From positions 17,309 through 81,308 of the forward strand of contig JBBEBM010000042.1 of the NCBI GenBank assembly GCA_040882355.1: a stretch of DNA of 64,000 bases. Direction: 5' to 3'. Under the pieces are notes generated by a model. That model had not been told where the DNA came from. It searched no databases and saw only the letters and a program-made list of their open reading frames with translations. This document shows positions 17,001 to 63,572 of the stretch, piece by piece; the first letter of the stretch is position 1, and the number at the start of each line of letters is the position of its first letter. Position numbers and translations under genes: made by a program. Origin of the DNA: Dehalococcoidia bacterium (GTDB lineage: Bacteria > Chloroflexota > Dehalococcoidia > DSTF01 > RBG-16-68-14).

Positions 17001-17333
17001 CTGATAAGGACAATCGAATACCCCGCCTGCCGAATCCCTAAGTGGAACGGGGGACCCACCGAGAACCGGGGTGAATTTCTCCTGACGATCAGGGGAAATG
17101 GCCAGTCCCTTCAGGCCAAACCCGTCAGCTAACCTCGTAGGCATCTGAGGGAAGGCGTCAGCCAGCGTAAACGCGGGACGAGGGCGGCGCTCTCATATTG
17201 CGCTCCTACGTATCCAGCGCGGTTCTGACGCAAGGCCTTCACCTCTCGGTCGTGTCCCCATTCGGTTAAGCCGCAGCAGATATGTGCGGCGCTTCTGGAT
17301 GCCAGGCGGAAGCACAGAGGAGGTGCGCCCCAC

Positions 17334-35153: not shown

Positions 35154-35211
35154 CCTTCGACCCAGAGGGAAGGGGAGGCGGGAGATACGGCCTGTGGCCG
35201 ATAACCCTTAG

Positions 35212-35823
35212 GTGGCCCCTGCGGGCCGCGCGAGGGGTATCGTGAGCGAAGACGAGACGTTCGCACCCGCTGACGACGAAGGCGAGGCGTTGCTGGTCGC
35301 TCGCGCGAAGCAGCGCGAGCCGTCCGCCTGGGCCGAGCTGTACGACGCCCACTACTCGAAGCTCTACCGCTACTGCTACGCCCGCACGGGCGACGAGGCC
35401 ACCGCGGCCGACCTGGCGTCGAAGGTGTTTCTGGAGGCGCTGGAGGGCATCGACCGGTACGAGTTCCGGGGGCGCCCGCTGCTCGCGTGGCTGTACCGCA
35501 TCGCCCGGAACGTGCTCACGGACCACCTGCGCGCCCGCGAGCGCGAGTCGAAGGCGCTGGAGCAGGCGGCAAGCTTGAGCGACCGGCACGACCCGGGCCC
35601 AGACGCCCACGTAGCCGACCGCGAGGACCTGCTGGCCGCGATGAAGCAGCTCACCGAAGAGCAGCAGCAGGTGGTGGCGCTGCGCTACTTCGCCGGATGC
35701 AGCACCCCTGAGATTGCGCGCCTGATGCGACGAAGCGAACGGGCGGTCTACTCGCTGGAGGCGCGCGCGCTGGCATCGTTGCGGCGGCTGCTAGAGCCGG
35801 AGCAGGCGGAATCGGCGGCCTGA
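35212..35823 (+). CDS. RNA polymerase ECF-type sigma factor
   Basis: Sigma-70 regions 2 and 4 are present (FLEALEGIDRYEFRGRPLLAWLYRIARNVLTDHLR; HTH at the C-terminus). Confidence 0.85.
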   Translation: MAPAGRARGIVSEDETFAPADDEGEALLVARAKQREPSAWAELYDAHYSKLYRYCYARTGDEATAADLASKVFLEALEGIDRYEFRGRPLLAWLYRIARNVLTDHLRARERESKALEQAASLSDRHDPGPDAHVADREDLLAAMKQLTEEQQQVVALRYFAGCSTPEIARLMRRSERAVYSLEARALASLRRLLEPEQAESAA

Positions 35824-36009: not shown

Positions 36010-36636
36010 ATGGAAGGCACGCTGATAGCAAACACAGCCGCCCTGCGAATTCATGTCCCGCCGCTGAGCGCCCTCCGCCCCAAGTCAGGCACGGAGGACG
36101 CAGAGGCGCGCCTGGTCGAGCGCGCGAAGGAGCGACGGCCGTCCGCCTGGGTGCAGATCTACGATGACCATTACCGGCGTCTCTACCTCTACTGTTACGC
36201 GCGGACGGGTGGCCGAGCGGTCGCAGCGAAGCTGGCGTCGCTGGTATTTCTGCAGGCGCTGAAGGAGATCGACCATCTCGTGCATTGGAGCGGCCAGTCG
36301 CTTCTCGCGTGGCTGTACGGCATGGCACGAAGTCACGTGGATGGGCATATCGAACGGGAGAGTAGCTGCGATCAAGTGGTCGATGCTGACGATGAGGGCC
36401 GGGAGATGGCGTGGATCCGGTCGCTGCCTCGAGAACAGCAGGAGGTGCTGGCCCTGCAATACTACGCGGGCTGCACGACGGCGGAGATCGCGAAGGTGAT
36501 CGAGCGCCCAGAGCAGTTCGTGGAGGGGCTGAAGGCCCGAGCGTTGCGCGGGTTGCTGCACGCGGGCAAGCTGAGACCGGACGCCACGCTCCCTACCGCG
36601 CCAGCCCTCGCTGGCGAGAGGAGAGTCCGGGCATGA
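36010..36636 (+). CDS. RNA polymerase ECF-type sigma factor (paralog of 35212..35823)
   Basis: It has the same domain layout, and its stop overlaps the next ATG (ATGA). Confidence 0.85.
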   Translation: MEGTLIANTAALRIHVPPLSALRPKSGTEDAEARLVERAKERRPSAWVQIYDDHYRRLYLYCYARTGGRAVAAKLASLVFLQALKEIDHLVHWSGQSLLAWLYGMARSHVDGHIERESSCDQVVDADDEGREMAWIRSLPREQQEVLALQYYAGCTTAEIAKVIERPEQFVEGLKARALRGLLHAGKLRPDATLPTAPALAGERRVRA

Positions 36637-55455: not shown

Positions 55456-55527
55456 CACAGATATCCACAGATGGACACAGACTGCCCCGAGCGACCCTTC
55501 GTCCGATTCCATCTGTGCAAATCTGTG
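55456..55527. promoter_or_regulatory. five TCTGTG/CACAGA hexamers at 10-bp phasing: three on the minus strand (55456, 55466, 55476), two on the plus strand (55512, 55522)
   Basis: Seen in sequence. The same phased triplet occurs at 10604-10629. Confidence 0.4.
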
Positions 55528-55554
55528 GCAGTCCCGGTGCTTGGAGGCGTGCTG

Positions 55555-55776
55555 ATGCCGATGTTCGTACACGTTGAGATCGACGATGACGTGGCTGGGG
55601 ACTCCGAGCTGGCTAAGAAGCTCGTCGAGGTTTGCCCGGTGAACATCTTCGAGCTCGGAACGGACGGACGGGCGCGCATCGTGGAGGAGAACGAGGATGA
55701 GTGTGTGCTCTGCGATCTCTGCATTCAGGCGGCACCCGAGAGTGAGGTGCGCGTGATCAAGCTCTACGAGTCGTAG
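55555..55776 (+). CDS. small ferredoxin-like Cys-rich protein (partial 4Fe-4S-type motifs)
   Basis: A GGAGG RBS lies 6 nt before the ATG. The product contains VEVCPVNIF...ECVLCDLCIQAAP. The ORF track starts at 55471, inside the repeat array. Confidence 0.4.
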   Translation: MPMFVHVEIDDDVAGDSELAKKLVEVCPVNIFELGTDGRARIVEENEDECVLCDLCIQAAPESEVRVIKLYES

Positions 55777-55819: not shown

Positions 55820-56752
55820 ATGGATGCGCCAACACTCCCCATCCTCAAAGACGCTGACGTAGCCTCGCTCGTCTCGATGAGCGAGGCCATCGACGTGATC
55901 GAGACGGCGCTGGCGCGCAAGGGCCGCGGCCAGTTCGTCACGCCGCCCCGCCACTACGTGCCGAACAAGAACGGCGCGCTGGTCTTCACGATCGGCGGCG
56001 ACGCCGACGAGGGCGCGATCGGCTTTCGCGTCTACGGCGCGTTCGCCGGCGGCGTCCGCGATAGCCAGGTGGTCGCCGTCTTCGACGCGAAGACAGGCGC
56101 GCTCAAGGGCCTGGTGCTCGGCGAGGTGGTTGGGTCGATGCGCACCGGCGCGATCGGCGGCGTCGCGATGAAGCACGGCGCCAGGCCCGATGCGAGGGTG
56201 GTCGGGGTGATCGGCTCCGGCGAGCAGGCGAGGACGCAGGTCGAGGCGGCAGCGGCCGTTCGCGATCTCGCTGAGGTGCGCGTCTACAGCCGGACACCGG
56301 CGCATCGCGAGGCGTTCGCAGCGAAGATGAGCGAGCGGCTCGGCCTGCCGGTCTTCGCCGTCCCTTCGGCAGAGGAGGCAGTACGGAGCGCGGACATCGT
56401 CGTGACGGCAACGAACAGCGGGACGCCGCTCTTCGACGCGGCGCTGCTGTCGCCGGGCGCGCACGTGAACGCGCTCGGCCCGACGTTCGCGCAGCGGCAC
56501 GAGCTGGACGCGGCGGTCGCTGAGCGGGCGGCGTCGATCTTCACGGACTCGCCGGAGCAGCTCCGCGCCTACCCGGAGCCGTCGTTCCTCGAAGGCACGC
56601 CGCACATAGCGCGCGTCAGCGACCTGGCAGGCCACGTGGCCGGCGGCGCGCCGATTCGGTCATCGGGCGAGGACATCACGCTGTTCCTGTCGGTGGGCCT
56701 GTCGGGCACGGAGGTCGTGCTGGCGGACCTGGCGCTATCGAAGGTGAAATGA
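55820..56752 (+). CDS. ornithine cyclodeaminase/mu-crystallin family protein
   Basis: It has a Rossmann GVIGSGEQA motif and family-typical N-terminal features. Confidence 0.85.
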   Translation: MDAPTLPILKDADVASLVSMSEAIDVIETALARKGRGQFVTPPRHYVPNKNGALVFTIGGDADEGAIGFRVYGAFAGGVRDSQVVAVFDAKTGALKGLVLGEVVGSMRTGAIGGVAMKHGARPDARVVGVIGSGEQARTQVEAAAAVRDLAEVRVYSRTPAHREAFAAKMSERLGLPVFAVPSAEEAVRSADIVVTATNSGTPLFDAALLSPGAHVNALGPTFAQRHELDAAVAERAASIFTDSPEQLRAYPEPSFLEGTPHIARVSDLAGHVAGGAPIRSSGEDITLFLSVGLSGTEVVLADLALSKVK

Positions 56753-57243
56753 AGCCCACGGAAGGGAGTCTGCGTATGGCCATCATAGAGAAGCGTCACT
56801 ATGAACCCCTGATCGACGATCCGGACGATTACCGGCCGAACTCGCAGCTCGCGCTGCTGGCTGACCCAGAGAGCCAGGATGGAGCGTTCGTGAAGGAGAT
56901 GAGCATCCTGTTCGAGACGTGCGCGCCGGGAGATCGGATCCCGCTCCATACGCACCCAATCGAAGAGGTCATCGTAATCGAGGAGGGAGAAGCGGAGGTC
57001 TCCCTGGGCGACGAACGCCAAACAGTGGGCGGCGGCGGCGTCATCTTCATCCCGACTGGCGTGGCGCATGGCCTGCGTAACGCGGGCGAAGCCAACCTGC
57101 GCCTCCTCGCGGTCTTCTCGTCCACCACGATCAGCCTTCAGTACCTGAACCGCAATCCGGCTCCAGGAACAGAGGGTAACGCGCCCCAGCCGCCGGTGTC
57201 GATCGACGTGCACGAGTACCAGAGATCGGTCGATGCGCGCTAG
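56749..57243 (+). CDS. cupin-domain protein
   Basis: Two cupin motifs are present: IPLHTHPIEEVIVIEEGEAEV...IPTGVAHGLRN. Confidence 0.75.
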   Translation: MKPTEGSLRMAIIEKRHYEPLIDDPDDYRPNSQLALLADPESQDGAFVKEMSILFETCAPGDRIPLHTHPIEEVIVIEEGEAEVSLGDERQTVGGGGVIFIPTGVAHGLRNAGEANLRLLAVFSSTTISLQYLNRNPAPGTEGNAPQPPVSIDVHEYQRSVDAR

Positions 57244-58699
57244 CGTCCGCATCGACCCGTACCGGCTGATCGGCGTGATCGACCCGCGCATCTACGGCTA
57301 CTTCATCGAGCACCTGGGGCGCTGCATCTATACGGGCGTCTTCGACCCGGGCTCGCCGCTGGCCGACGAACGCGGCTTCCGGCGCGACGTGCTGGAGGCC
57401 GCGCGAAGGCTCCGGCCGCCGGTCTTGCGCTGGCCGGGCGGCAACTTCGTATCGGGCTATCGCTGGCTGGACGGTGTGGGGCCCGGCCCGCAGCGTCCGT
57501 CGCGACCGGAGCTGGCCTGGCGCACGACCGAGAGCAACCAGTTCGGCACGAACGAGTTCATCGACTACTGCCGCGCGCTCGACACGGAGCCGTACATCTG
57601 CGTGAACATGGGAGACGGCTCGATGCGGGAGGCGGTCGCGTGGGTGGAGTACTGCAACCGCGCGGGCGGCACCCAGTACGCCGACCTGCGCCGTCGCCAC
57701 GGCTACGAGTCGCCGCACGACGTGACGTTATGGGGGCTGGGCAACGAAGTCTACGGCGAGTGGCAGATCGGGCACAAGAGCGCATCCGATTACGCGGAGG
57801 AGGCGCGCGAGTGGGGCAAGCTGCTGAAGTGGCTCGACCCGCGCGTGCAGCTCGTCGCGGCTGGCAGCGACCGGCCGGCCTGGAACTGGGAGCTGCTGAC
57901 GCAGGCGGGACGGGCGATGAACTACATCTCCATCCACTTCTACTTCGGGCCGGACCGCCCCGCCGGCGATGCGTACCATTCGCTGCTCGCGCGCACTGAC
58001 GCAGCGGAGGCGGCGATCCGGGCGCTCTGGGGCCAGGTGCAGGCGGCGCGCATCGAGACGAAGCTGAAGAAAGACATCTGGATCGCAGTCGACGAGTGGA
58101 ACGTCTGGTACCGGACGACGGGCGACTACGGCGACCCCCCGCTGGAGGAGCGCTACGACCTGACCGACGCGCTCACGGTCGCCGGCTTCCTGAACGTGCT
58201 ACACCGCAACGCCGACAAGGTGCGGCTGGCAAACCTGGCGCAGATGGTGAACGTGATCGCCCCGATCATGACGAAGCCGGACGGCGTGCTGCTCCAGAGC
58301 ATCTACTGGCCGCTCGTCGCCGTTGCGGAGCACCGGGGCGACGTGGCCCTCGACGTGTGGAGCGAGAGCGACGGCTTCACGCCTCGCGAAGGCGCGGCGC
58401 AGTCGCCCTACCTCGACGTGTCGGCGACGCTCGACGTGGGCACGAGGACGCTCTACGTCCACGCGGTGAACCGGCATCGAGACGAGGCGGCGGAGGTGCG
58501 GCTGCGGCTGCTCGATGTGATGCCGCAGCCAGAGGGCGCCCTCCACCTCATCACAGCGCCCGACCCAAGCGCGACCAACACGTTCGACCATCCCGACGCC
58601 GTGACGCTGCACTCGCAGCCACTCACGGACCTCTCGAGCGACTGCGTCGTCGAGCTACCGCCGCACTCGGCGGGTACGATCGAGCTACGGCTGGAGTAG
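57233..58699 (+). CDS. alpha-L-arabinofuranosidase (GH51)
   Basis: The product is GH51-like: RWPGGNFVSGYRWLDGVGP...GLGNEVYGEWQIGH. Confidence 0.88.
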   Translation: MRASVRIDPYRLIGVIDPRIYGYFIEHLGRCIYTGVFDPGSPLADERGFRRDVLEAARRLRPPVLRWPGGNFVSGYRWLDGVGPGPQRPSRPELAWRTTESNQFGTNEFIDYCRALDTEPYICVNMGDGSMREAVAWVEYCNRAGGTQYADLRRRHGYESPHDVTLWGLGNEVYGEWQIGHKSASDYAEEAREWGKLLKWLDPRVQLVAAGSDRPAWNWELLTQAGRAMNYISIHFYFGPDRPAGDAYHSLLARTDAAEAAIRALWGQVQAARIETKLKKDIWIAVDEWNVWYRTTGDYGDPPLEERYDLTDALTVAGFLNVLHRNADKVRLANLAQMVNVIAPIMTKPDGVLLQSIYWPLVAVAEHRGDVALDVWSESDGFTPREGAAQSPYLDVSATLDVGTRTLYVHAVNRHRDEAAEVRLRLLDVMPQPEGALHLITAPDPSATNTFDHPDAVTLHSQPLTDLSSDCVVELPPHSAGTIELRLE

Positions 58700-59185
58700 G
58701 CTCCTTCCCTTCCCTTCCCTTTCGTGACCGTCTGAGGATTTTCAACCCTCGGCTTCCATCCAGCAGCGCGTGTCGCCTTGGCGTTGCTCCCACCACACCT
58801 CAGCTGCGAGGAGGGTGCTAGGAGCTGAGGGATTCTCGCCATAGCGAGTCGCCGGAGGCGACATCCCGCAGATGCGGAGCCCCACCGACCGCCATTGGAT
58901 GGGCCACGCTGCACTCACCTTCCCTAGCCACGGGTCCGGCTGCAGACCTTTAGGTCTGCCGAGTCGCCGTCGGTCCGGGCAGGGCTGAAGCCCTGCAGCT
59001 ACCGGCGGCAGCACCCCAGCCTCGGCCAGCGCTCACGAGTAGTGGTTCTCCCCGTGCCGTGTAAGCTTTTCCGCCGCTCGCCGTCTTACTAGTAGAAGCT
59101 GGCGAAACTGCGGAAGCCCGCTTTCCCCAACTCTCAGGTCCCGCCCACAAGGGCCTTGCAACGTCTCTGCGAGGAGGAGTGACGC

Positions 59186-59365
59186 ATGCTGGTGTTATCG
59201 CGAAGGGTCATGGAAGGCGTTGTCCTGTCGGGCAACATCCACGTGCAGGTGTTGTCGATTAAGCGCGGCCGGGTGAAGATCGGCATCACGGCGCCAAGCG
59301 AGGTCGAGGTGCTCCGTGAGGAACTGCGCGGGCGCGAGCTGGAGGGGCTGTCGAGCGATGCTTGA
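59186..59365 (+). CDS. csrA: carbon storage regulator CsrA
   Basis: A GAGGAGGAG RBS precedes the ATG. The product MLVLSRRVMEGVVLSGNIHVQVLSIKRGRVKIGITAPSEVEVLREEL is a strong match to CsrA. It is not in the ORF track (59 aa). Confidence 0.8.
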   Translation: MLVLSRRVMEGVVLSGNIHVQVLSIKRGRVKIGITAPSEVEVLREELRGRELEGLSSDA

Positions 59366-59936
59366 GGTCGCGCCTTCCGAGTCTGCAAGCGAACGGGAGT
59401 TGGTGGAGCGAGCGATCGGACGCGACGGCGACGCGTTCGCGGCGCTCTACGACCGCCATGCCACAGCCATTTATCGGCGCCTTTACAAGCTCGTCGGTAA
59501 CGCGCCGGACGCGGAGGACCTCACGGCCCAGGTCTTCCTGCAGGCCTGGCAGGCCATCGACCGATTCGAGCTTCGAGGGGCGCCGTTTGTTTCGTGGCTG
59601 ATGCGTATCGCGCACAACCTGGCCGTGAGCCACCTACGGCGACACCGGGACCATGCGCAGCTTCCGGAGGCTGCGGAAGGCCCAGGTTCAAGACAGACCA
59701 ATCCGGAGGAGGCGGTCCAGCGCCTTCTGGACGAGGAGCGCGTCCTGCGGGCGCTCCAGAACCTAGGACGCGAACAGCGCCTGGTCGTCGCGCTGCGGGA
59801 GCTTGACAACCTGGACTACCGCGAGGTGGCAGCCATTTTGGGCAAGAGCGTGCCCGCGGTGCGGGTGATCCGGCATCGAGCGATCAACGCCCTACGCAGG
59901 CAGATGGCCCCGGACGCCCAGATGGCCGGCGCCTGA
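59358..59936 (+). CDS. RNA polymerase ECF-type sigma factor; start overlaps the csrA stop (ATGCTTGA)
   Basis: The product is MLEVAPSESASERELVERAIGRDGDAFAALYDRHATAIYRRLYKLVGN... It contains sigma-70 regions 2 and 4. Confidence 0.75.
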   Translation: MLEVAPSESASERELVERAIGRDGDAFAALYDRHATAIYRRLYKLVGNAPDAEDLTAQVFLQAWQAIDRFELRGAPFVSWLMRIAHNLAVSHLRRHRDHAQLPEAAEGPGSRQTNPEEAVQRLLDEERVLRALQNLGREQRLVVALRELDNLDYREVAAILGKSVPAVRVIRHRAINALRRQMAPDAQMAGA

Positions 59937-60039
59937 GGGCGATTCCCGGCCTGACGCCACGGGGAAGCGCATCCTAGGCGTGTGGTACCGTTAGCATGCT
60001 GGAATCCCGTGTTCTCCCAACCCGGGGTGGCTTAGGTTC

Positions 60040-61941
60040 ATGCAAACTACTCAAGCGCCGGAGCGCGAAACGGACGATGTCCTCGTCGTACGGGCGCGGG
60101 CAGGCGATGAAGACGCCTTCGCCCGGCTCTACGAGCGCTACTTTGGCGGGGTCTACGACTTCGTCCTACGGATCGTCCGCAACCCCGACGCCGCGGCGGA
60201 CGTGGTGCAGAGCACCTTCGTGTCGGCCTGGCAGGCGCTTCAGAAGGGGAGCGGCCCTGCGAACTTCAAGGCCTGGCTCCTCGTCACCGCCCGGAACGGC
60301 GCGATCGACGAAGTCCGGCGACGGCAGCGCTTGACTTCGTTGCCGGACGAGGCAAACGATCGGGGCGAGCCCAGCCCCTACGCGGAACTCTCGGCCGGCA
60401 GGTCGTCCGATCCGCTGGCCGTGGCCCAGGAGCGAGAGGTGGCGGAGTTGGTCTGGGGCGCGGCGACCGCGCTGGACCCGCGAGAGTACTCGCTGCTCGA
60501 CATGAACCTCAGACAGGGCCTGAGCGCCGACGAGCTCTCCGACGTGCTGGGCGTGAGCAAGGGCAGCATCTACACCCGACTCTCCCGGCTGCGCGGTTCG
60601 TTGGAAGAGTCGGTCACGTCGTCGTTGCTAATGCGGCGCGGACGGGAGGAGTGCCCCGACCTCGACCTCCTGCTGCTCGAGCTCAATGCAGTCGAGCTGA
60701 CAAAGGACGTACGGCAGAGGATTCAGGCCCACCTCAAGGAGTGCCCTCGCTGTCAGGAGAGCAAACGCCGCTTCGTCTCCCCAATCGAGATCTTCGCCGG
60801 CATCCTGCCCATCGCGGTGCTCCCAGCCGTCCAGGACTCGATCTGGCAGGGCGTGGTAGCCGGGATTGCTGCGGGCGTTGCCGTCGGCCATGGCTTGCTC
60901 GCTGTCCCGCGCCAGTGGTGGGCGGCAAGCTCAACCGCGACGCGAGCCATGGTGGTCACCGTGCCCGGCGTCGTCATCGTGGCCGGCCTCATCCTGGGTC
61001 TCCTGTCGCTGCTCGGAGGTGGAGGCGGGGTCGAGGACCCGGGTGACGTCCACAGCACGAGTCACGAAATCGGCCGGGCCTCCGGCGAAAACGTGGTCCA
61101 GGTCGTTTGGTCCCGTCAGGAGGACGTGCAAGGTTACTCCGTGCGTTGGAGTCAGGCGCCCCGGGACCTGCCGGACGAGGAGACGGATCTCCTGGGAAGC
61201 GCAACCGGGGCGACCAGCCCCGCGCTAGCCGGCGGATCGTGGTACTTCCACCTGCGGACGCAAGGGGACGGCGGCGACTGGACGAGCACGGTGCATGTCG
61301 GACCATTTGTCATCGACGAGACAGGTGAGGTGGCGGGAGCCACGAGCGTTCCGCCCGAAGCTGAAACATCGCCCTCCGAGACGCCCACCCCGAGCTACGT
61401 TCCGACCGCCGCGACTCCCATGTCGCCGCCGGCAATCGCTGCGCCGCGATCGAACGCCGTAGGACCGATTCCGGCCACGCCGAAGACTGCAGCCGCAACG
61501 CCAACCGCTACGCCGTCACCGACCGCGACACCAAGCGCGACTCCGACCGAGACCCCAACCGTGACACCCACGAAGACGCCGACCAAGACACCCACAAAGA
61601 CGCCGACCAAGACACCCACGAAGACGCCGACCACGACACCCACGAAGACGCCGACCGAGACACCAACGCCAACAGCGACGGAGTCCCCTACGCCGCGAGC
61701 GACGCCGACGCCGACCGAAACACCTACGCCAACACGCACGCCGACACCGAGAGAGACGCCTACACCAACTCGGACGCCTATTCCAACACCCTCCGAGACG
61801 CCCACACCAACGAAGACTCCCACGCCTGCCAAGACGCCTACGCCAACGAAAACTCCTGTACCGACAAAGACCCCTACCACGGCCAAGACGCCAACGCCGA
61901 TAGCGATGCCCACCCCCACGCGACCGCCCAACCCCCACTGA
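60040..61941 (+). CDS. single-polypeptide ECF sigma / zf-HC2 anti-sigma fusion with TM helix, conserved extracytoplasmic domain and a long Thr/Pro-rich tail
   Basis: Sigma regions 2/4 occupy aa 1-190. A Cys motif [10 protein letters not shown] is followed by a TM helix. The external domain carries the motif [36 protein letters not shown]. The tail is (TPTKTP)n. Confidence 0.7.
61555..61670 (+). repeat. ~24-bp tandem nucleotide repeat (ACGCCGACCAAGACACCCACGAAG)n encoding TPTKTP units
   Basis: Seen in sequence inside the tail of the 60040..61941 gene. Confidence 0.7.
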
Positions 61942-62048: not shown

Positions 62049-63572
62049 TTGGCGGGAGCGGCACGGAGTACCACCCACAGGATGGAAATGGAAGTCGAAC
62101 AGCTCACGGACGAGGAGCTGGCCGTCAGGGGAGGTGAAGGCGACCAGGCCGCCTTCACCTCCCTCTACGAGCGCTACTTCCAGCGCATCTATGACTTCGC
62201 GCTGCGCCTCACGCGCGATCACGACGAGGCGGCAGATGTCACACAATCGACGTTCCTCAAGGCATACCAATCGCTCGAGCAGCGAGACCAGAACGCCAGC
62301 TTCAAGTCGTGGCTCTTCACGATCGCCCACCACGATGCGCTCGACCGCATGCGTCGCGGGCGTCGCCTCGTGCGCACCAGCGATGCCCAGGACGAGGAGG
62401 GTCTGGCCGTCCTCGCTTCGGACCGTCTGCGCGATCCGCTGGAAGCGGCCGAGCGAGACGAGATCGGGCGGCTGGTCTGGGAGGCGGCGCGCGGGCTCAA
62501 ACCACGAGAGTACGCGCTGCTCGATCTCTATGTGCGGCAGGGCATGGATCCGGTCGAGATATCGCAGATCACGGGCGTGCGGAGGGAGTCGGTGCATACG
62601 GCGCTGAGCGGCCTGCGCGGCGAGTTCGAGGAGGCGTTCACAGCGCTGATCCTGGTCGCGCGTGGCCGTTCCGCCTGCGAGGAGCTGGCGCAGCTCGCCG
62701 GCCCGCCTTCGCCCAAGGTGCGCGAGCGGGTGATGCGCCACCTGGAGGTGTGCGAAACGTGCCAGGAGAGCCGGCGTCGCTACGTTACGGCCGTCGAGTT
62801 CCTGGGCGCGATGCCACCGGTGGTGGTGCTGCCCGCGCTGCAGGACTCGATCCTGAGCCACGTCCTCACGCACACAGGGACCGCTGCGGACACCGAAGCG
62901 CCCGTTCTGGACGAAGGCTCGCCAGGCGTCGATGCGTTGCGGCGGTTCTGGCTGCGCTGGCGGCTGGCGCTGAGCGCCGCAGCGGTCGTGGTCGCGTCGC
63001 TCCTGTTCTTCGGGGTCGTGATGGCGCAGCGCGGTTCGGGTGGTGGTGAACAGGGCCCCCGCGACCCCCAGGACATCCGCAGCACGTCGCATGAAGTGGG
63101 CGTGCCGTCCCAGGAGCAAGACGTGGTCATCGTCTGGACGCCGCTCGACGACCTGCTGGGCTACTCGGTGCGCTGGAGCCAGGACCCGGACGCGCTGCCT
63201 GACACAACGCGCGACCTGCCCGGCGACGCCGACCGCGCCTGGACCCATCTTGCGCCGGGGAACTGGTACTTCTCGCTGCGGACAGAAGACCAAGACGAGC
63301 AGTGGACGAGCACGGCGCACCTGGGGCCATTCATGATCCGGGGCGACGGGCCGACGCCGACGATCACGGCTTCGCCGACCGTGACGCCCACCGGCGAGGC
63401 GACCCCAGCGCCGACCCGACCGCGGACGCAGCCGCCCGCCGTCGCTCCCAGCGCCACGCCCATCATTATCCGGCCGCCCACGGCAACGCAACAGCCCGCG
63501 CCGCCACCACCCACCGCGACACGCGTACCGCCCACAGCCACTCAGGCGCCGCCGCCCACGCCGACCCCGTAG
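62049..63572 (+). CDS. paralogous ECF sigma / zf-HC2 anti-sigma fusion with the same extracytoplasmic domain and a Pro/Thr/Ala-rich tail
   Basis: It contains HLEVCETCQE, a TM helix (ALSAAAVVVASLLFFGVVMA) and [37 protein letters not shown]. The start may be ATG 62082 (MEMEVEQL). Confidence 0.7.
   Translation: MAGAARSTTHRMEMEVEQLTDEELAVRGGEGDQAAFTSLYERYFQRIYDFALRLTRDHDEAADVTQSTFLKAYQSLEQRDQNASFKSWLFTIAHHDALDRMRRGRRLVRTSDAQDEEGLAVLASDRLRDPLEAAERDEIGRLVWEAARGLKPREYALLDLYVRQGMDPVEISQITGVRRESVHTALSGLRGEFEEAFTALILVARGRSACEELAQLAGPPSPKVRERVMRHLEVCETCQESRRRYVTAVEFLGAMPPVVVLPALQDSILSHVLTHTGTAADTEAPVLDEGSPGVDALRRFWLRWRLALSAAAVVVASLLFFGVVMAQRGSGGGEQGPRDPQDIRSTSHEVGVPSQEQDVVIVWTPLDDLLGYSVRWSQDPDALPDTTRDLPGDADRAWTHLAPGNWYFSLRTEDQDEQWTSTAHLGPFMIRGDGPTPTITASPTVTPTGEATPAPTRPRTQPPAVAPSATPIIIRPPTATQQPAPPPPTATRVPPTATQAPPPTPTP

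What the first reader, a model, noticed from the sequence alone, without database searches (positions are those of the whole stretch)
58700..59365. Unlisted csrA translationally overlapping an ECF sigma gene, preceded by a 480-bp GGA-rich non-coding region
A 59-codon gene with a perfect GAGGAGGAG RBS encodes a canonical CsrA. Its TGA overlaps the ATG of an ECF sigma factor (ATGCTTGA), implying co-translation. CsrA is usually linked to fliW or flagellar genes rather than to sigma factors. The upstream 480 bp have no ORF and contain multiple GGA/AGGA motifs, several in potential hairpins (for example CAGGGCTGAAGCCCTG). That region could encode a CsrB-like decoy sRNA, or an autoregulatory leader.
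Basis: partly seen in the sequence, partly recalled or inferred. Interest (0 to 1): 0.6.

Follow-up and report, generated by a model that had tools for sequence, protein, structure and literature searches.

The report
csrA gene overlapping an ECF sigma gene
An uncultured Dehalococcoidia bacterium carries a real gene for the RNA-binding regulator CsrA that overlaps, and is probably co-translated with, an ECF sigma factor gene; this pairing is conserved in relatives and I found no description of it, but the DNA upstream is not a CsrA-decoy RNA.

Summary
The gene-level observation is correct. Positions 59186-59365 encode a canonical 59-aa CsrA (Pfam 65 bits, RNA-binding residues intact, pN/pS about 0.2). 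Its stop overlaps the start of an ECF sigma gene (59358-59936) in ATGCTTGA.

The same 8-nt overlap recurs in at least six other metagenomic lineages. A 1-nt overlap occurs in a distant relative whose csrA carries an internal duplication. None of 80 GTDB csrA loci has a sigma gene next to csrA, whereas 25 have fliW. Wider orthologues of this sigma lack csrA.

The "GGA-rich decoy" reading is not supported:
- GGA density equals the window background.
- The GGA-bearing segment is missing in close relatives.
- Most of these GGAs are predicted to be paired.
- Rfam finds nothing.

The intergenic region resolves into five parts:
- a polypyrimidine tract;
- a fast-evolving segment;
- a palindromic two-hairpin element, inverted in one relative;
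- a strongly conserved two-block ECF-type promoter (TGTAAG-N16-CGTC, 59060-59089);
- a leader of about 95 nt, whose Shine-Dalgarno hairpin shows GAGGA in its loop.

Most likely this is one operon. Sigma translation depends on csrA translation, and CsrA may feed back on its own ribosome-binding site. That feedback is inferred, not shown.

The parts
58701..58723 (+). Polypyrimidine (CT-only) tract starting two bases after the arabinofuranosidase (GH51-like) stop codon. It is a possible Rho-loading (rut-like) site or a simple-repeat microsatellite.
   Evidence: It is the longest CT-only run in the 64-kb window. The same position holds a 72-nt tract in L165 and an interrupted ~50-nt tract in L166. 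The upstream gene in L166 is the 92%-identical orthologue. The rut function is inference only.
58724..58931 (.). Fast-evolving, non-conserved intergenic segment.
   Evidence: It is largely absent from L165, L166 and L002, and half deleted in L164. It has 6 GGA in 90 nt, mostly base-paired in the predicted fold. The fold z-score is -0.97.
58936..59005 (.). Palindromic element made of two 7-bp GC-rich hairpins: H1 58942-58959 (GCAGACC-TTTA-GGTCTGC) and H2 58979-58996 (GCAGGGC-TGAA-GCCCTGC). A short closing stem flanks them. It probably marks the 3' end of the upstream operon, as a terminator or insulator.
   Evidence: The fold z-score is -3.2 on the + strand and -2.4 on the - strand. Both stems are kept in L164, L165, L166 and L002. 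The L002 copy aligns better to the reverse complement (score 37 against 17). H2 loops carry 28-34-nt insertions in three relatives. There is no other copy in the window or in the 1.05 Mb of sequence held.
59060..59089 (+). P1, a two-block promoter-like motif: TGTAAGCTTTT-N10-CCGTCTTAC, that is TGTAAG-N16-CGTC, which resembles ECF-type promoters.
   Evidence: Both blocks show 0-1 mismatch in seven loci, including the distant L085. The 10-nt spacer varies freely in sequence but is fixed in length. The motif is unique in 1.05 Mb. No sigma-70 consensus promoter occurs in the region.
59090..59185 (+). Predicted 5' leader of the csrA-sigma mRNA.
   Evidence: It is 74-76% identical to L165, L002 and L166, about the level expected from the synonymous divergence of csrA, with conserved islands. 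The fold is not unusually stable, z = +0.5.
59162..59184 (+). Shine-Dalgarno hairpin. CGUCUCUGC pairs with GGAGUGACG, and the loop GAGGA (59171-59175) presents a GGA. It is a candidate CsrA binding site.
   Evidence: RNAalifold predicts this consensus stem. All seven pairs are invariant in five sequences even though three of them carry an 8-nt insertion in the loop. GGA lies in the loop in 4 of 5 sequences. There is no covariation, so the support is weak.
59186..59365 (+). csrA (59 aa).
   Evidence: Pfam CsrA scores 65 bits. The protein aligns without gaps to solved CsrA structures. pN/pS is 0.15-0.23 against diverged relatives.
59358..59365 (+). ATGCTTGA, where the sigma start codon overlaps the csrA stop codon by 8 nt.
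   Evidence: The overlap is identical in L164 and L165, and reads ATGCTTAA in L002 and L166. Gene calls show the same 8-nt overlap on the P0005, P0013 and P0011 contigs. L085 has a 1-nt overlap, TGATG.
59358..59936 (+). ECF (group 4) sigma-70 factor, 192 aa.
   Evidence: It has Sigma70_r2 and r4_2 domains. TIGR02937 scores 104.8 bits, above its cut-off of 42.9. The best subfamily match, BldN, is below its cut-off. The protein is 100% identical to an NCBI protein of a Dehalococcoidia MAG.
60040..61941 (+). Membrane-anchored ECF sigma with zf-HC2, a predicted membrane segment and a Pro/Thr-rich tail (ECF52-like). It is syntenic with the csrA-sigma pair.
   Evidence: Pfam and NCBIfam hits are. 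A large gene follows the pair on the P0005 contig, L001, L002 and L085.
62049..63572 (+). Second ECF52-like sigma/anti-sigma fusion gene. The true start is probably downstream of the listed TTG.

Best explanation
csrA and the ECF sigma gene form one conserved bicistronic operon in a clade of uncultured Dehalococcoidia.

Transcription most likely starts just downstream of a conserved two-block, ECF-type promoter (P1, 59060-59089). This gives a leader of about 95 nt. Ribosomes load at the strong Shine-Dalgarno GAGGAGGAG and translate csrA. The sigma cistron has no conserved Shine-Dalgarno of its own and starts inside the csrA stop (ATGCTTGA), so it is translated mainly by ribosomes finishing csrA. 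The two proteins are therefore made together, in a fixed ratio.

By analogy with E. coli csrA autoregulation and with CsrA repression of rpoE, CsrA is proposed to bind the GGA exposed in the loop of its own Shine-Dalgarno hairpin (59162-59184). That would throttle both cistrons at once: a post-transcriptional brake built into a sigma-factor module.

The other ~360 nt of the intergenic region belong to the 3' end of the upstream arabinofuranosidase operon: a polypyrimidine tract, a variable filler segment and a palindromic hairpin element. They are not a CsrA decoy.

Shown:
- the gene identities;
- the overlap and its conservation;
- conservation of the promoter-like motif;
- the lack of GGA enrichment and of conservation upstream.

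Inferred:
- the transcription start;
- which sigma reads P1;
- translational coupling;
- CsrA feedback.
For: Gene identities:
- csrA.
- The sigma factor.

Conservation of the overlap:
- The overlap is seen directly in the sequence.
- It is kept in L164, L165, L002 and L166, in the P0005/P0012 contig, in the P0013 contig and in the P0011 contig.
- In L085, a duplicated csrA overlaps a 59%-identical sigma by 1 nt.

Translational coupling:
- The sequence ahead of the sigma ATG decays from GGAGGGG to GGAAGCGG, AGAAGAGG and AACGGGCG in relatives. No independent Shine-Dalgarno is conserved.

Promoter P1:
- Both blocks are invariant, the spacer is free in sequence but fixed in length, the motif is present in L085 and it is unique in 1.05 Mb.
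- ECF sigma genes are usually autoregulated and co-encoded with their regulators (PMC7826278).

Possible CsrA feedback:
- The Shine-Dalgarno hairpin has GGA in its loop in 4 of 5 sequences.
- CsrA binds GGA in hairpin loops, represses its own translation, and represses rpoE translation in E. coli (PMC7652899).

Specificity of the linkage:
- 0 of 80 GTDB csrA loci have a sigma gene adjacent, while 25 of 80 have fliW.
Against: - There are no expression data. The transcription start, coupling and CsrA binding are all untested.
- The leader is not unusually structured (z = +0.5). As a whole it is no more conserved than synonymous sites.
- The Shine-Dalgarno hairpin pairs never vary, so nothing covaries.
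- L165 has no GGA in that loop. L085 has a different leader with a single GGA.
- A GGA inside a Shine-Dalgarno is expected in any gene with a strong ribosome-binding site, so it is weak evidence for CsrA binding.
- csrA-less orthologues of this sigma (54-63% identity) carry a different upstream motif (CTGCCGAxCCT), not P1. P1 may therefore be read by another sigma, for example the neighbouring ECF52-like proteins, and self-regulation is unproven.
- The hairpin around the sigma start has one compensatory pair but non-significant stability, with z between -0.05 and -1.9.
Confidence: 0.55

Rival explanations
1. The operon is real, but CsrA does not regulate the sigma. csrA is simply an output of the sigma-dependent (or ECF52-dependent) response. 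When the module fires, CsrA is co-produced and reshapes translation of other mRNAs, as the post-transcriptional arm of the regulon. There is no feedback on its own transcript.
For: - The linkage and P1 are conserved.
- The evidence for a CsrA site in the leader is only a GGA within or next to the Shine-Dalgarno, and nothing covaries.
- L165 and L085 have a single GGA in that region.
- In B. subtilis, csrA lies in a flagellar operon together with fliW and acts on hag, a target outside its own transcript (PMC7652899).
Against: - CsrA proteins studied so far repress their own translation (PMC7652899).
- A Shine-Dalgarno made of GAGGAGGAG is itself a good CsrA ligand.
- A plain output gene would not need an overlap kept across 59-97% sigma identity and across a remodelling of csrA.
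Confidence: 0.3
2. One reading: the 58700-59180 region encodes a CsrB/RsmZ-like decoy sRNA that titrates CsrA through multiple GGA motifs in hairpin loops.
For: - A local patch has 6 GGA in 90 nt (58808-58897), in the top 0.8% of + strand windows.
- Small hairpins there include GTCGCC-GGA-GGCGAC (58848-58862) and a 17-nt loop holding GAGGAGGG.
- The region lies next to csrA.
Against: - Overall GGA count equals background, and 18 comparable patches occur elsewhere on the same strand.
- Most of these GGAs are predicted to be paired.
- The patch is missing from L165, L166 and L002, and is cut down in L164, whose CsrA is 97% identical.
- The fold z-score is -0.97.
- There is no Rfam match at E <= 10 and no promoter or terminator consensus.
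- CsrB has 22 GGA in about 370 nt (PMC7652899).
Confidence: 0.05
3. The palindromic two-hairpin element (58936-59005) is a regulatory switch for csrA-sigma, not a passive terminator. It could be an invertible DNA segment or a structured RNA in a longer leader that starts upstream of P1.
For: - It sits at the same place in five lineages with its stems kept.
- It is found in both orientations in near-identical backgrounds. The CsrA proteins of L002 and L166 differ by one residue, yet the elements are inverted relative to each other.
- The fold z-score is -3.2.
Against: - The flanking inverted repeats are only ~7-11 bp, and the flipped core is only ~60 nt with no promoter-like sequence.
- No recombinase gene lies nearby.
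- L085 keeps csrA-sigma and P1 without the element.
- A quasi-palindrome can swap its arms by template switching without any function.
- Its identity to relatives (65-82%) brackets the ~70% expected for neutral sites.
Confidence: 0.07
4. The polypyrimidine tract is transcribed from the minus strand. There it reads as (AGGAG/AGGAA)n, giving an unstructured GGA-repeat RNA that sponges CsrA.
For: - The tract is the longest of its kind in the window and expands to 72 nt in L165. By my own count that is about 14 GGA on the minus strand, against 4 in the window.
- It sits next to csrA in three lineages.
Against: - No minus-strand promoter or terminator was found.
- The transcript would be antisense to the 3' end of the arabinofuranosidase gene.
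- The tract is absent from the sequenced parts of L002 and L164 and from L085.
- Length variation of the kind seen is typical of simple-repeat slippage.
- A C-rich, G-poor tract just after a stop codon is equally well explained as a Rho-loading site (general knowledge).
Confidence: 0.03

Closest known systems
Canonical ECF sigma / anti-sigma operons (for example rpoE-rseA, sigW-rsiW)
   Same: A small ECF sigma is co-transcribed with a dedicated partner gene, often with overlapping stop and start codons. A conserved two-block promoter lies upstream. ECF sigmas usually autoregulate and are co-encoded with their regulators (PMC7826278).
   Different: The partner here is upstream of the sigma and is an RNA-binding CsrA, not an anti-sigma protein. 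No separate anti-sigma gene was recognised next to the sigma; the next gene is an ECF52-like fusion protein. CsrA does not appear in the main text of the ECF classification; its supplements were not available.
E. coli CsrA-RpoE circuit
   Same: CsrA acts on an ECF sigma at the level of translation, binding sites that overlap the rpoE Shine-Dalgarno and start codon (PMC7652899).
   Different: In E. coli the genes are unlinked and the loop closes through the CsrB/C sRNAs. Here the two genes overlap on one mRNA, and no decoy RNA is evident.
E. coli csrA autoregulation
   Same: The csrA leader carries GGA-containing sites that include the Shine-Dalgarno, and translation is repressed by its own product (PMC7652899).
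   Different: It is monocistronic in E. coli. Here any repression would pass on to the downstream sigma through coupling. Binding has not been tested.
B. subtilis fliW-csrA (Hag-FliW-CsrA partner switch)
   Same: csrA is embedded in a specialised operon, next to the component it works with, and acts at near-stoichiometric levels rather than as a free-standing global gene (PMC7652899). 25 of 80 GTDB csrA loci show fliW adjacency.
   Different: No fliW or flagellar gene occurs in the 64-kb window. This CsrA is 59 aa and lacks the extended C-terminus that FliW binds. Its partner gene is a sigma factor.
CsrB / RsmY / RsmZ decoy sRNAs
   Same: A non-coding region near csrA contains some GGA motifs and hairpins.
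   Different: There is no GGA excess, the motifs are mostly paired, the region is not conserved, and there is no Rfam hit.

Membership tests
CsrA/RsmA family (PF02599) | Profile match above the curated threshold | tested here: met
   Pfam CsrA scores 65 bits against a cut-off of 27, E 5.9e-18, covering residues 1-48 of the 53-position model.
CsrA/RsmA family (PF02599) | NCBIfam equivalog TIGR00202 cut-off | tested here: not met
   66.9 bits against a cut-off of 70.1. The miss is narrow and is caused by the short C-terminus.
CsrA/RsmA family (PF02599) | RNA-binding residues conserved (L2, L4, R6, R7, V40, V42, R44) | tested here: met
   An ungapped alignment to E. coli CsrA 1Y00 over residues 1-50 shows all of them present; I47 is replaced by L. 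The residue list is partly from PMC7652899 (L4 and R44) and partly from my own knowledge.
CsrA/RsmA family (PF02599) | Homodimer that binds GGA-containing RNA | not testable with these tools
   This needs EMSA or structural work.
ECF (group 4) sigma-70 factors | Only sigma regions 2 and 4 present, with a superfamily model above its cut-off | tested here: met
   Sigma70_r2 69 bits and r4_2 42 bits. TIGR02937 scores 104.8 against a cut-off of 42.9.
ECF (group 4) sigma-70 factors | Membership of the BldN subfamily (TIGR02952) | tested here: not met
   136 bits against a cut-off of 206.
ECF (group 4) sigma-70 factors | Adjacent cognate anti-sigma factor | tested here: inconclusive
   No small anti-sigma ORF follows the sigma gene. 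The next genes are ECF52-like fusions that carry their own zf-HC2 domains. Some csrA-less orthologues have an overlapping 91-aa gene downstream.
ECF-type autoregulated promoter | Two conserved blocks with fixed spacing of 16-18 bp and a free spacer sequence | tested here: met
   TGTAAGGTTTT-N10-CCGTCTTAC (TGTAAG-N16-CGTC) shows 0-1 mismatch in seven loci, with variable spacers. The 16-18-bp spacer rule is from PMC7776599.
ECF-type autoregulated promoter | The same motif travels with the sigma gene in orthologues (self-regulation) | tested here: not met
   csrA-less orthologues (L084, L167, L170, L172) have CTGCCGAxCCT instead, not P1. P1 co-occurs with csrA and with the ECF52-like genes.
Translationally coupled gene pair | Stop/start overlap conserved | tested here: met
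   An 8-nt overlap occurs in eight contigs and a 1-nt overlap in L085.
Translationally coupled gene pair | Downstream cistron lacks its own conserved ribosome-binding site | tested here: met
   GGAGGGG in the window is replaced by GGAAGCGG, AGAAGAGG and AACGGGCG in relatives.
Translationally coupled gene pair | Downstream translation depends on upstream translation | not testable with these tools
   This needs reporter fusions with csrA nonsense or start-codon mutants.
CsrB/Rsm-type decoy sRNA | GGA motifs far above background | tested here: not met
   10 per 486 nt against a background of 8.6.
CsrB/Rsm-type decoy sRNA | GGA exposed in hairpin loops or single strands | tested here: not met
   For eight of the ten motifs, one or both G residues are paired with probability above 0.8.
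CsrB/Rsm-type decoy sRNA | Conserved wherever the cognate csrA is conserved | tested here: not met
   The segment 58724-58931 is largely absent in L165, L166 and L002.
CsrB/Rsm-type decoy sRNA | Own promoter and terminator; a discrete transcript | tested here: inconclusive
   The consensus scans find none, but those scans do not cover non-canonical signals, and there are no RNA data.

The most novel reading that the evidence does not exclude
In this Dehalococcoidia clade, CsrA has been recruited as the dedicated, co-encoded regulator of an ECF sigma module, taking the place usually held by an anti-sigma factor. By binding the Shine-Dalgarno hairpin of its own bicistronic mRNA it would set the translation of both itself and the sigma, giving negative feedback on a sigma-driven promoter. 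A related lineage has gone further and turned CsrA into an internally duplicated, probably single-site protein. If so, this is a protein-only Csr circuit with neither decoy sRNAs nor FliW.
Probability: 0.25. Interest if true: 0.65.

Novelty: new variant of a known kind. Interest (0 to 1): 0.45.

Why it matters
CsrA biology is known almost entirely from Proteobacteria, where sRNA decoys control it, and from Firmicutes and spirochaetes, where FliW does. ECF sigma factors are known to be controlled by anti-sigma proteins, C-terminal extensions, phosphorylation or transcription.

A conserved csrA-sigma pair with overlapping coding sequences suggests a third arrangement. A post-transcriptional regulator and a transcription initiation factor would be produced as a fixed-ratio unit, and the RNA-binding protein could act as the brake on the sigma.

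It would also be a first handle on what CsrA does in Chloroflexota, where I found no study of CsrA function in two literature searches.

The practical value is limited. The organism is uncultured and every mechanistic step is inferred. The module is small, however, and could be tested in a heterologous host.

Tried and rejected
- **Rfam.** I scanned 58400-60200 at E <= 10 and the whole window at gathering thresholds. Nothing lies in the intergenic region; the only hit is a c-di-AMP riboswitch at 17018-17158.
- **Promoter and terminator scans.** The sigma-70 promoter and intrinsic terminator scans of 58500-60100 found nothing.
- **Repeats.** BLAST of the intergenic region against the window and all held loci, plus regex searches for the hairpins, found no further copies. 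A multi-copy REP/MITE family could be neither shown nor excluded.
- **GTDB genomes.** The search with a CsrA profile returned no relative above 59% identity, so the lineage is not represented there. It served only as a baseline for gene neighbourhoods.
- **P1 elsewhere.** I looked for P1 upstream of the csrA-less sigma orthologues and elsewhere in the window and found none.
- **BldN promoter.** I tried to retrieve the published BldN promoter consensus for comparison. It is not in the papers held. The comparison of P1 with B. subtilis sigma-X/W-type promoters rests on my own knowledge.
- **Strand of the palindromic element.** I considered strand-specific G-U evidence. I rejected it because the L002 copy is inverted.
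- **Structure prediction.** The AlphaFold2 model of the duplicated CsrA from L085 had pLDDT 51 and was uninformative, so I ran no fold search.
- **MAFFT alignment.** MAFFT misplaced the 3' arm of the palindromic element because of the loop insertions. I therefore read the pairs directly from the sequences.
- **Missing DNA.** The contigs carrying P0005, P0013 and P0011 could not be fetched, so only their gene coordinates were used.
Full report
**What is there**

The window around the finding reads, left to right:
- an alpha-L-arabinofuranosidase (GH51-like) gene ending at 58699;
- a 486-nt gap;
- a 59-codon ORF at 59186-59365;
- a 192-codon ORF at 59358-59936;
- two large genes at 60040-61941 and 62049-63572.

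The 59-codon ORF is a bona fide csrA.
- It matches Pfam CsrA at 65 bits against a cut-off of 27.
- It aligns without gaps to E. coli CsrA over residues 1-50, with L2, L4, R6, R7, V40, V42 and R44 in place.
- It falls just short of the NCBIfam equivalog cut-off, 66.9 against 70.1, because its C-terminus is short.
- It evolves under purifying selection. pN/pS is 0.15-0.23 against relatives whose synonymous divergence is about 0.3.

GAGGAGGAG lies 7 nt before the csrA ATG.

The downstream ORF is an ECF sigma, with regions 2 and 4 and TIGR02937 above its cut-off. It is closest to the BldN family but below that cut-off. Its ATG and the csrA TGA share the octamer ATGCTTGA. The sigma protein is 100% identical to an NCBI protein annotated from a Dehalococcoidia MAG, on a 104-kb contig. 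That identifies the source.

**Is the linkage conserved?**

Yes, within a clade.
- Exact-protein look-ups and the sigma search recovered independent metagenomic contigs whose CsrA is 75-97% identical and whose sigma is 69-88% identical. On every contig that reaches that far, csrA overlaps the sigma start by the same 8 nt. Two of them use TAA instead of TGA.
- A more distant contig, L085, has a sigma 59% identical. There a 98-aa CsrA with an internal duplication ends in TGATG, overlapping the sigma start by 1 nt.
- So the pairing has outlasted substantial divergence and a remodelling of csrA itself.

It is not general.
- The 80 closest csrA loci in GTDB species genomes are at most 59% identical. 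None has a detectable ECF sigma next to csrA, whereas 25 have fliW directly adjacent.
- The many Chloroflexota orthologues of this sigma at 54-63% identity lack csrA. They sit between a VWA-domain gene and a Flp/Tad pilus operon.
- The sigma N-terminus MLEVA aligns across both kinds, which confirms the start codon.
- No fliW and no second csrA occur in the 64-kb window.

**Coupling**

The purine-rich stretch ahead of the sigma ATG is GGAGGGG in the window. It becomes GGAAGCGG, AGAAGAGG and AACGGGCG in relatives, while the overlap is invariant. The downstream cistron therefore has no conserved ribosome-binding site of its own. This is the usual signature of termination-reinitiation coupling.

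A hairpin enclosing the sigma start is predicted in the close clade, with one compensatory pair. Its stability is not significant, with z between -0.05 and -1.9, and L085 lacks it. I treat it as suggestive only.

**The 486-nt intergenic region**

It is not GGA-rich.
- It has 10 GGA, against 8.6 +/- 3.3 for same-sized windows on the same strand.
- A 90-nt patch with six GGA exists at 58808-58897, but 18 similar patches occur elsewhere on that strand.
- In the predicted ensemble, eight of the ten motifs have one or both G residues paired with probability above 0.8; only 58830 and 58854 are about half open.

Aligning the region with five related contigs splits it into parts with very different behaviour.

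1. **Polypyrimidine tract, 58701-58723.**
   - It is the longest CT-only run in the window.
   - It expands to 72 nt in L165 and about 50 nt in L166, where the upstream gene is the same arabinofuranosidase.
   - A C-rich, G-poor tract just after a stop codon fits a Rho-loading site or a slippage-prone simple repeat. This is inference.

2. **Variable segment, 58724-58931.**
   - It holds the GGA patch.
   - It is largely absent from L165, L166 and L002, and half deleted in L164, whose CsrA is 97% identical.

3. **Palindromic element, 58936-59005.**
- It is made of two 7-bp GC hairpins.
   - It folds better than shuffles (z = -3.2) and keeps its stems in all relatives.
   - The L002 copy aligns far better as a reverse complement (37 against 17).
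   - Three relatives carry 28-34-nt hairpin insertions in one loop.
   - L085 has no such element.
   - It behaves like a recombination-prone palindrome at the 3' end of the upstream operon, and most plausibly acts as a terminator or insulator.
   - No further copies exist in the sequence I hold.

4. **Variable spacer, 59011-59059.**

5. **P1, 59060-59089: TGTAAGCTTTT-N10-CCGTCTTAC.**
   - Both blocks show 0-1 mismatch in seven loci, including L085.
   - The 10-nt spacer is free in sequence and fixed in length.
   - The motif is unique in 1.05 Mb.
   - Read as TGTAAG-N16-CGTC, it has the layout of ECF-type promoters. The 16-18-bp spacing is from PMC7776599. Its resemblance to B. subtilis sigma-X/W promoters is from my own knowledge.
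   - No sigma-70 consensus promoter is present.

6. **Leader, about 95 nt.**
   - As a whole it is about as diverged as synonymous sites (74-76% identity).
   - It contains invariant islands. Among them, CAACGTCYCTGC can pair with the Shine-Dalgarno AGGAGUGACG.
   - In the consensus fold all seven pairs are invariant despite an 8-nt loop insertion in three sequences. A GGA sits in the loop in four of five sequences; in the window it is GAGGA at 59171-59175.
   - The leader is not unusually stable (z = +0.5).

**How it most likely works**

One operon is transcribed from P1. csrA is translated from a strong ribosome-binding site, and the sigma is translated by coupling. The proteins are therefore co-produced in a fixed ratio.

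CsrA binds single-stranded GGA in hairpin loops. It represses its own translation in E. coli, and it represses translation of the ECF sigma gene rpoE (PMC7652899). The simplest mechanistic proposal is that CsrA binds its own Shine-Dalgarno hairpin and thereby brakes both cistrons. ECF sigmas are normally co-encoded with their regulator and autoregulated (PMC7826278). That makes the conserved partner gene a natural candidate regulator.

Two caveats matter.
- A GGA in a Shine-Dalgarno is expected anyway, and nothing covaries.
- The csrA-less orthologues of this sigma carry a different upstream motif. P1 may therefore be read by another sigma, for instance the two ECF52-like membrane-anchored sigmas that travel with the csrA-sigma pair.

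The main rival is that CsrA is only an output of the module and does not feed back.

**Comparison with known systems**

The arrangement works like a sigma/anti-sigma operon in layout, and like the E. coli CsrA-rpoE and csrA autoregulatory circuits in proposed mechanism. It is a member of none of them. The partner is an RNA-binding protein placed upstream of the sigma, there is no decoy RNA, and there is no FliW.

I found no description of a csrA-ECF sigma operon:
- full-text searches returned nothing relevant;
- the main text of the ECF re-classification does not mention CsrA, and its supplements were not available.

I therefore rate it a new variant of known kinds. The evidence is genomic only, from uncultured organisms.

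**Verdict**

- The gene-level observation and the claim about an unusual, conserved linkage hold.
- "GGA-rich" and the decoy-sRNA interpretation do not.
- An autoregulatory leader remains a reasonable but untested inference, confined to 59090-59185.

Noticed in passing
L085 1125-1421 (also proteins P0128, P0129): This is a 98-aa CsrA with an internal duplication of strands beta2-beta5. The first copy lacks the Arg44 equivalent (VSVVHPS). The second lacks the N-terminal MLILTRK strand. A single chain would therefore keep only one of the two RNA-binding sites of a normal CsrA dimer. A 78%-identical protein with the same layout exists on six contigs, and only these two clusters cover the full length. 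The AlphaFold2 model was uninformative, pLDDT 51.
   Followed up: partly
protein P0150: This 171-aa protein has two complete CsrA units (both with LILTRK ... ILRGEL) joined by a ~55-aa linker. It is another kind of tandem CsrA.
   Followed up: no
window 60040-61941 and 62049-63572: Two adjacent proteins each combine an ECF sigma domain, a zf-HC2 anti-sigma zinc finger, a hydrophobic segment and a long Pro/Thr-rich tail. This is the ECF52 architecture, which the literature describes as exclusive to Actinobacteria (PMC5826349). Here it occurs in a Dehalococcoidia MAG, syntenic with csrA-sigma.
   Followed up: partly
window 17018-17158 (+): A c-di-AMP riboswitch (ydaO/yuaA leader) scores 87.8 bits against a gathering score of 38.
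   Followed up: no
window 35212-35823 and 36010-36636 (+): Two further ECF sigma genes lie in tandem. The first gives E 7e-32 against the csrA-linked sigma. A purine run, AGAGGGAAGGGGAGG, lies just upstream at 35164-35178.
   Followed up: no
L170 3057-10585; also L084, L167, L171, L172: Orthologues of the sigma without csrA sit between a VWA-domain gene and a Flp/Tad pilus operon (Flp, RcpC, a CpaE-like ATPase, CpaF, TadB). They share an upstream motif, CTGCCGAxCCT. This suggests that the ancestral role of this sigma is tied to Tad pili.
   Followed up: partly
window 58936-59005 versus L002 22-96: The palindromic two-hairpin element is inverted in L002 relative to the window and to L166, although the L002 and L166 CsrA proteins differ by one residue. 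In L164, L165 and L166 one hairpin loop holds 28-34-nt insertions made of mini-hairpins (TCGCC-NGA-GGCGA). These resemble 58848-58862 in the window.
   Followed up: partly
window 58701-58723; L165 16-87: A polypyrimidine simple repeat lies directly after the arabinofuranosidase stop codon. It changes both unit (CCCTT, CCTTT, CCTCT) and length (23 to 72 nt) between close relatives.
   Followed up: partly
window 55471-55776 versus L085 56-277: A small ferredoxin-like gene is syntenic. In L085 only one gene separates it from csrA. The ornithine cyclodeaminase-like, cupin and arabinofuranosidase genes (55820-58699) are therefore an insertion specific to the window's lineage.
   Followed up: no
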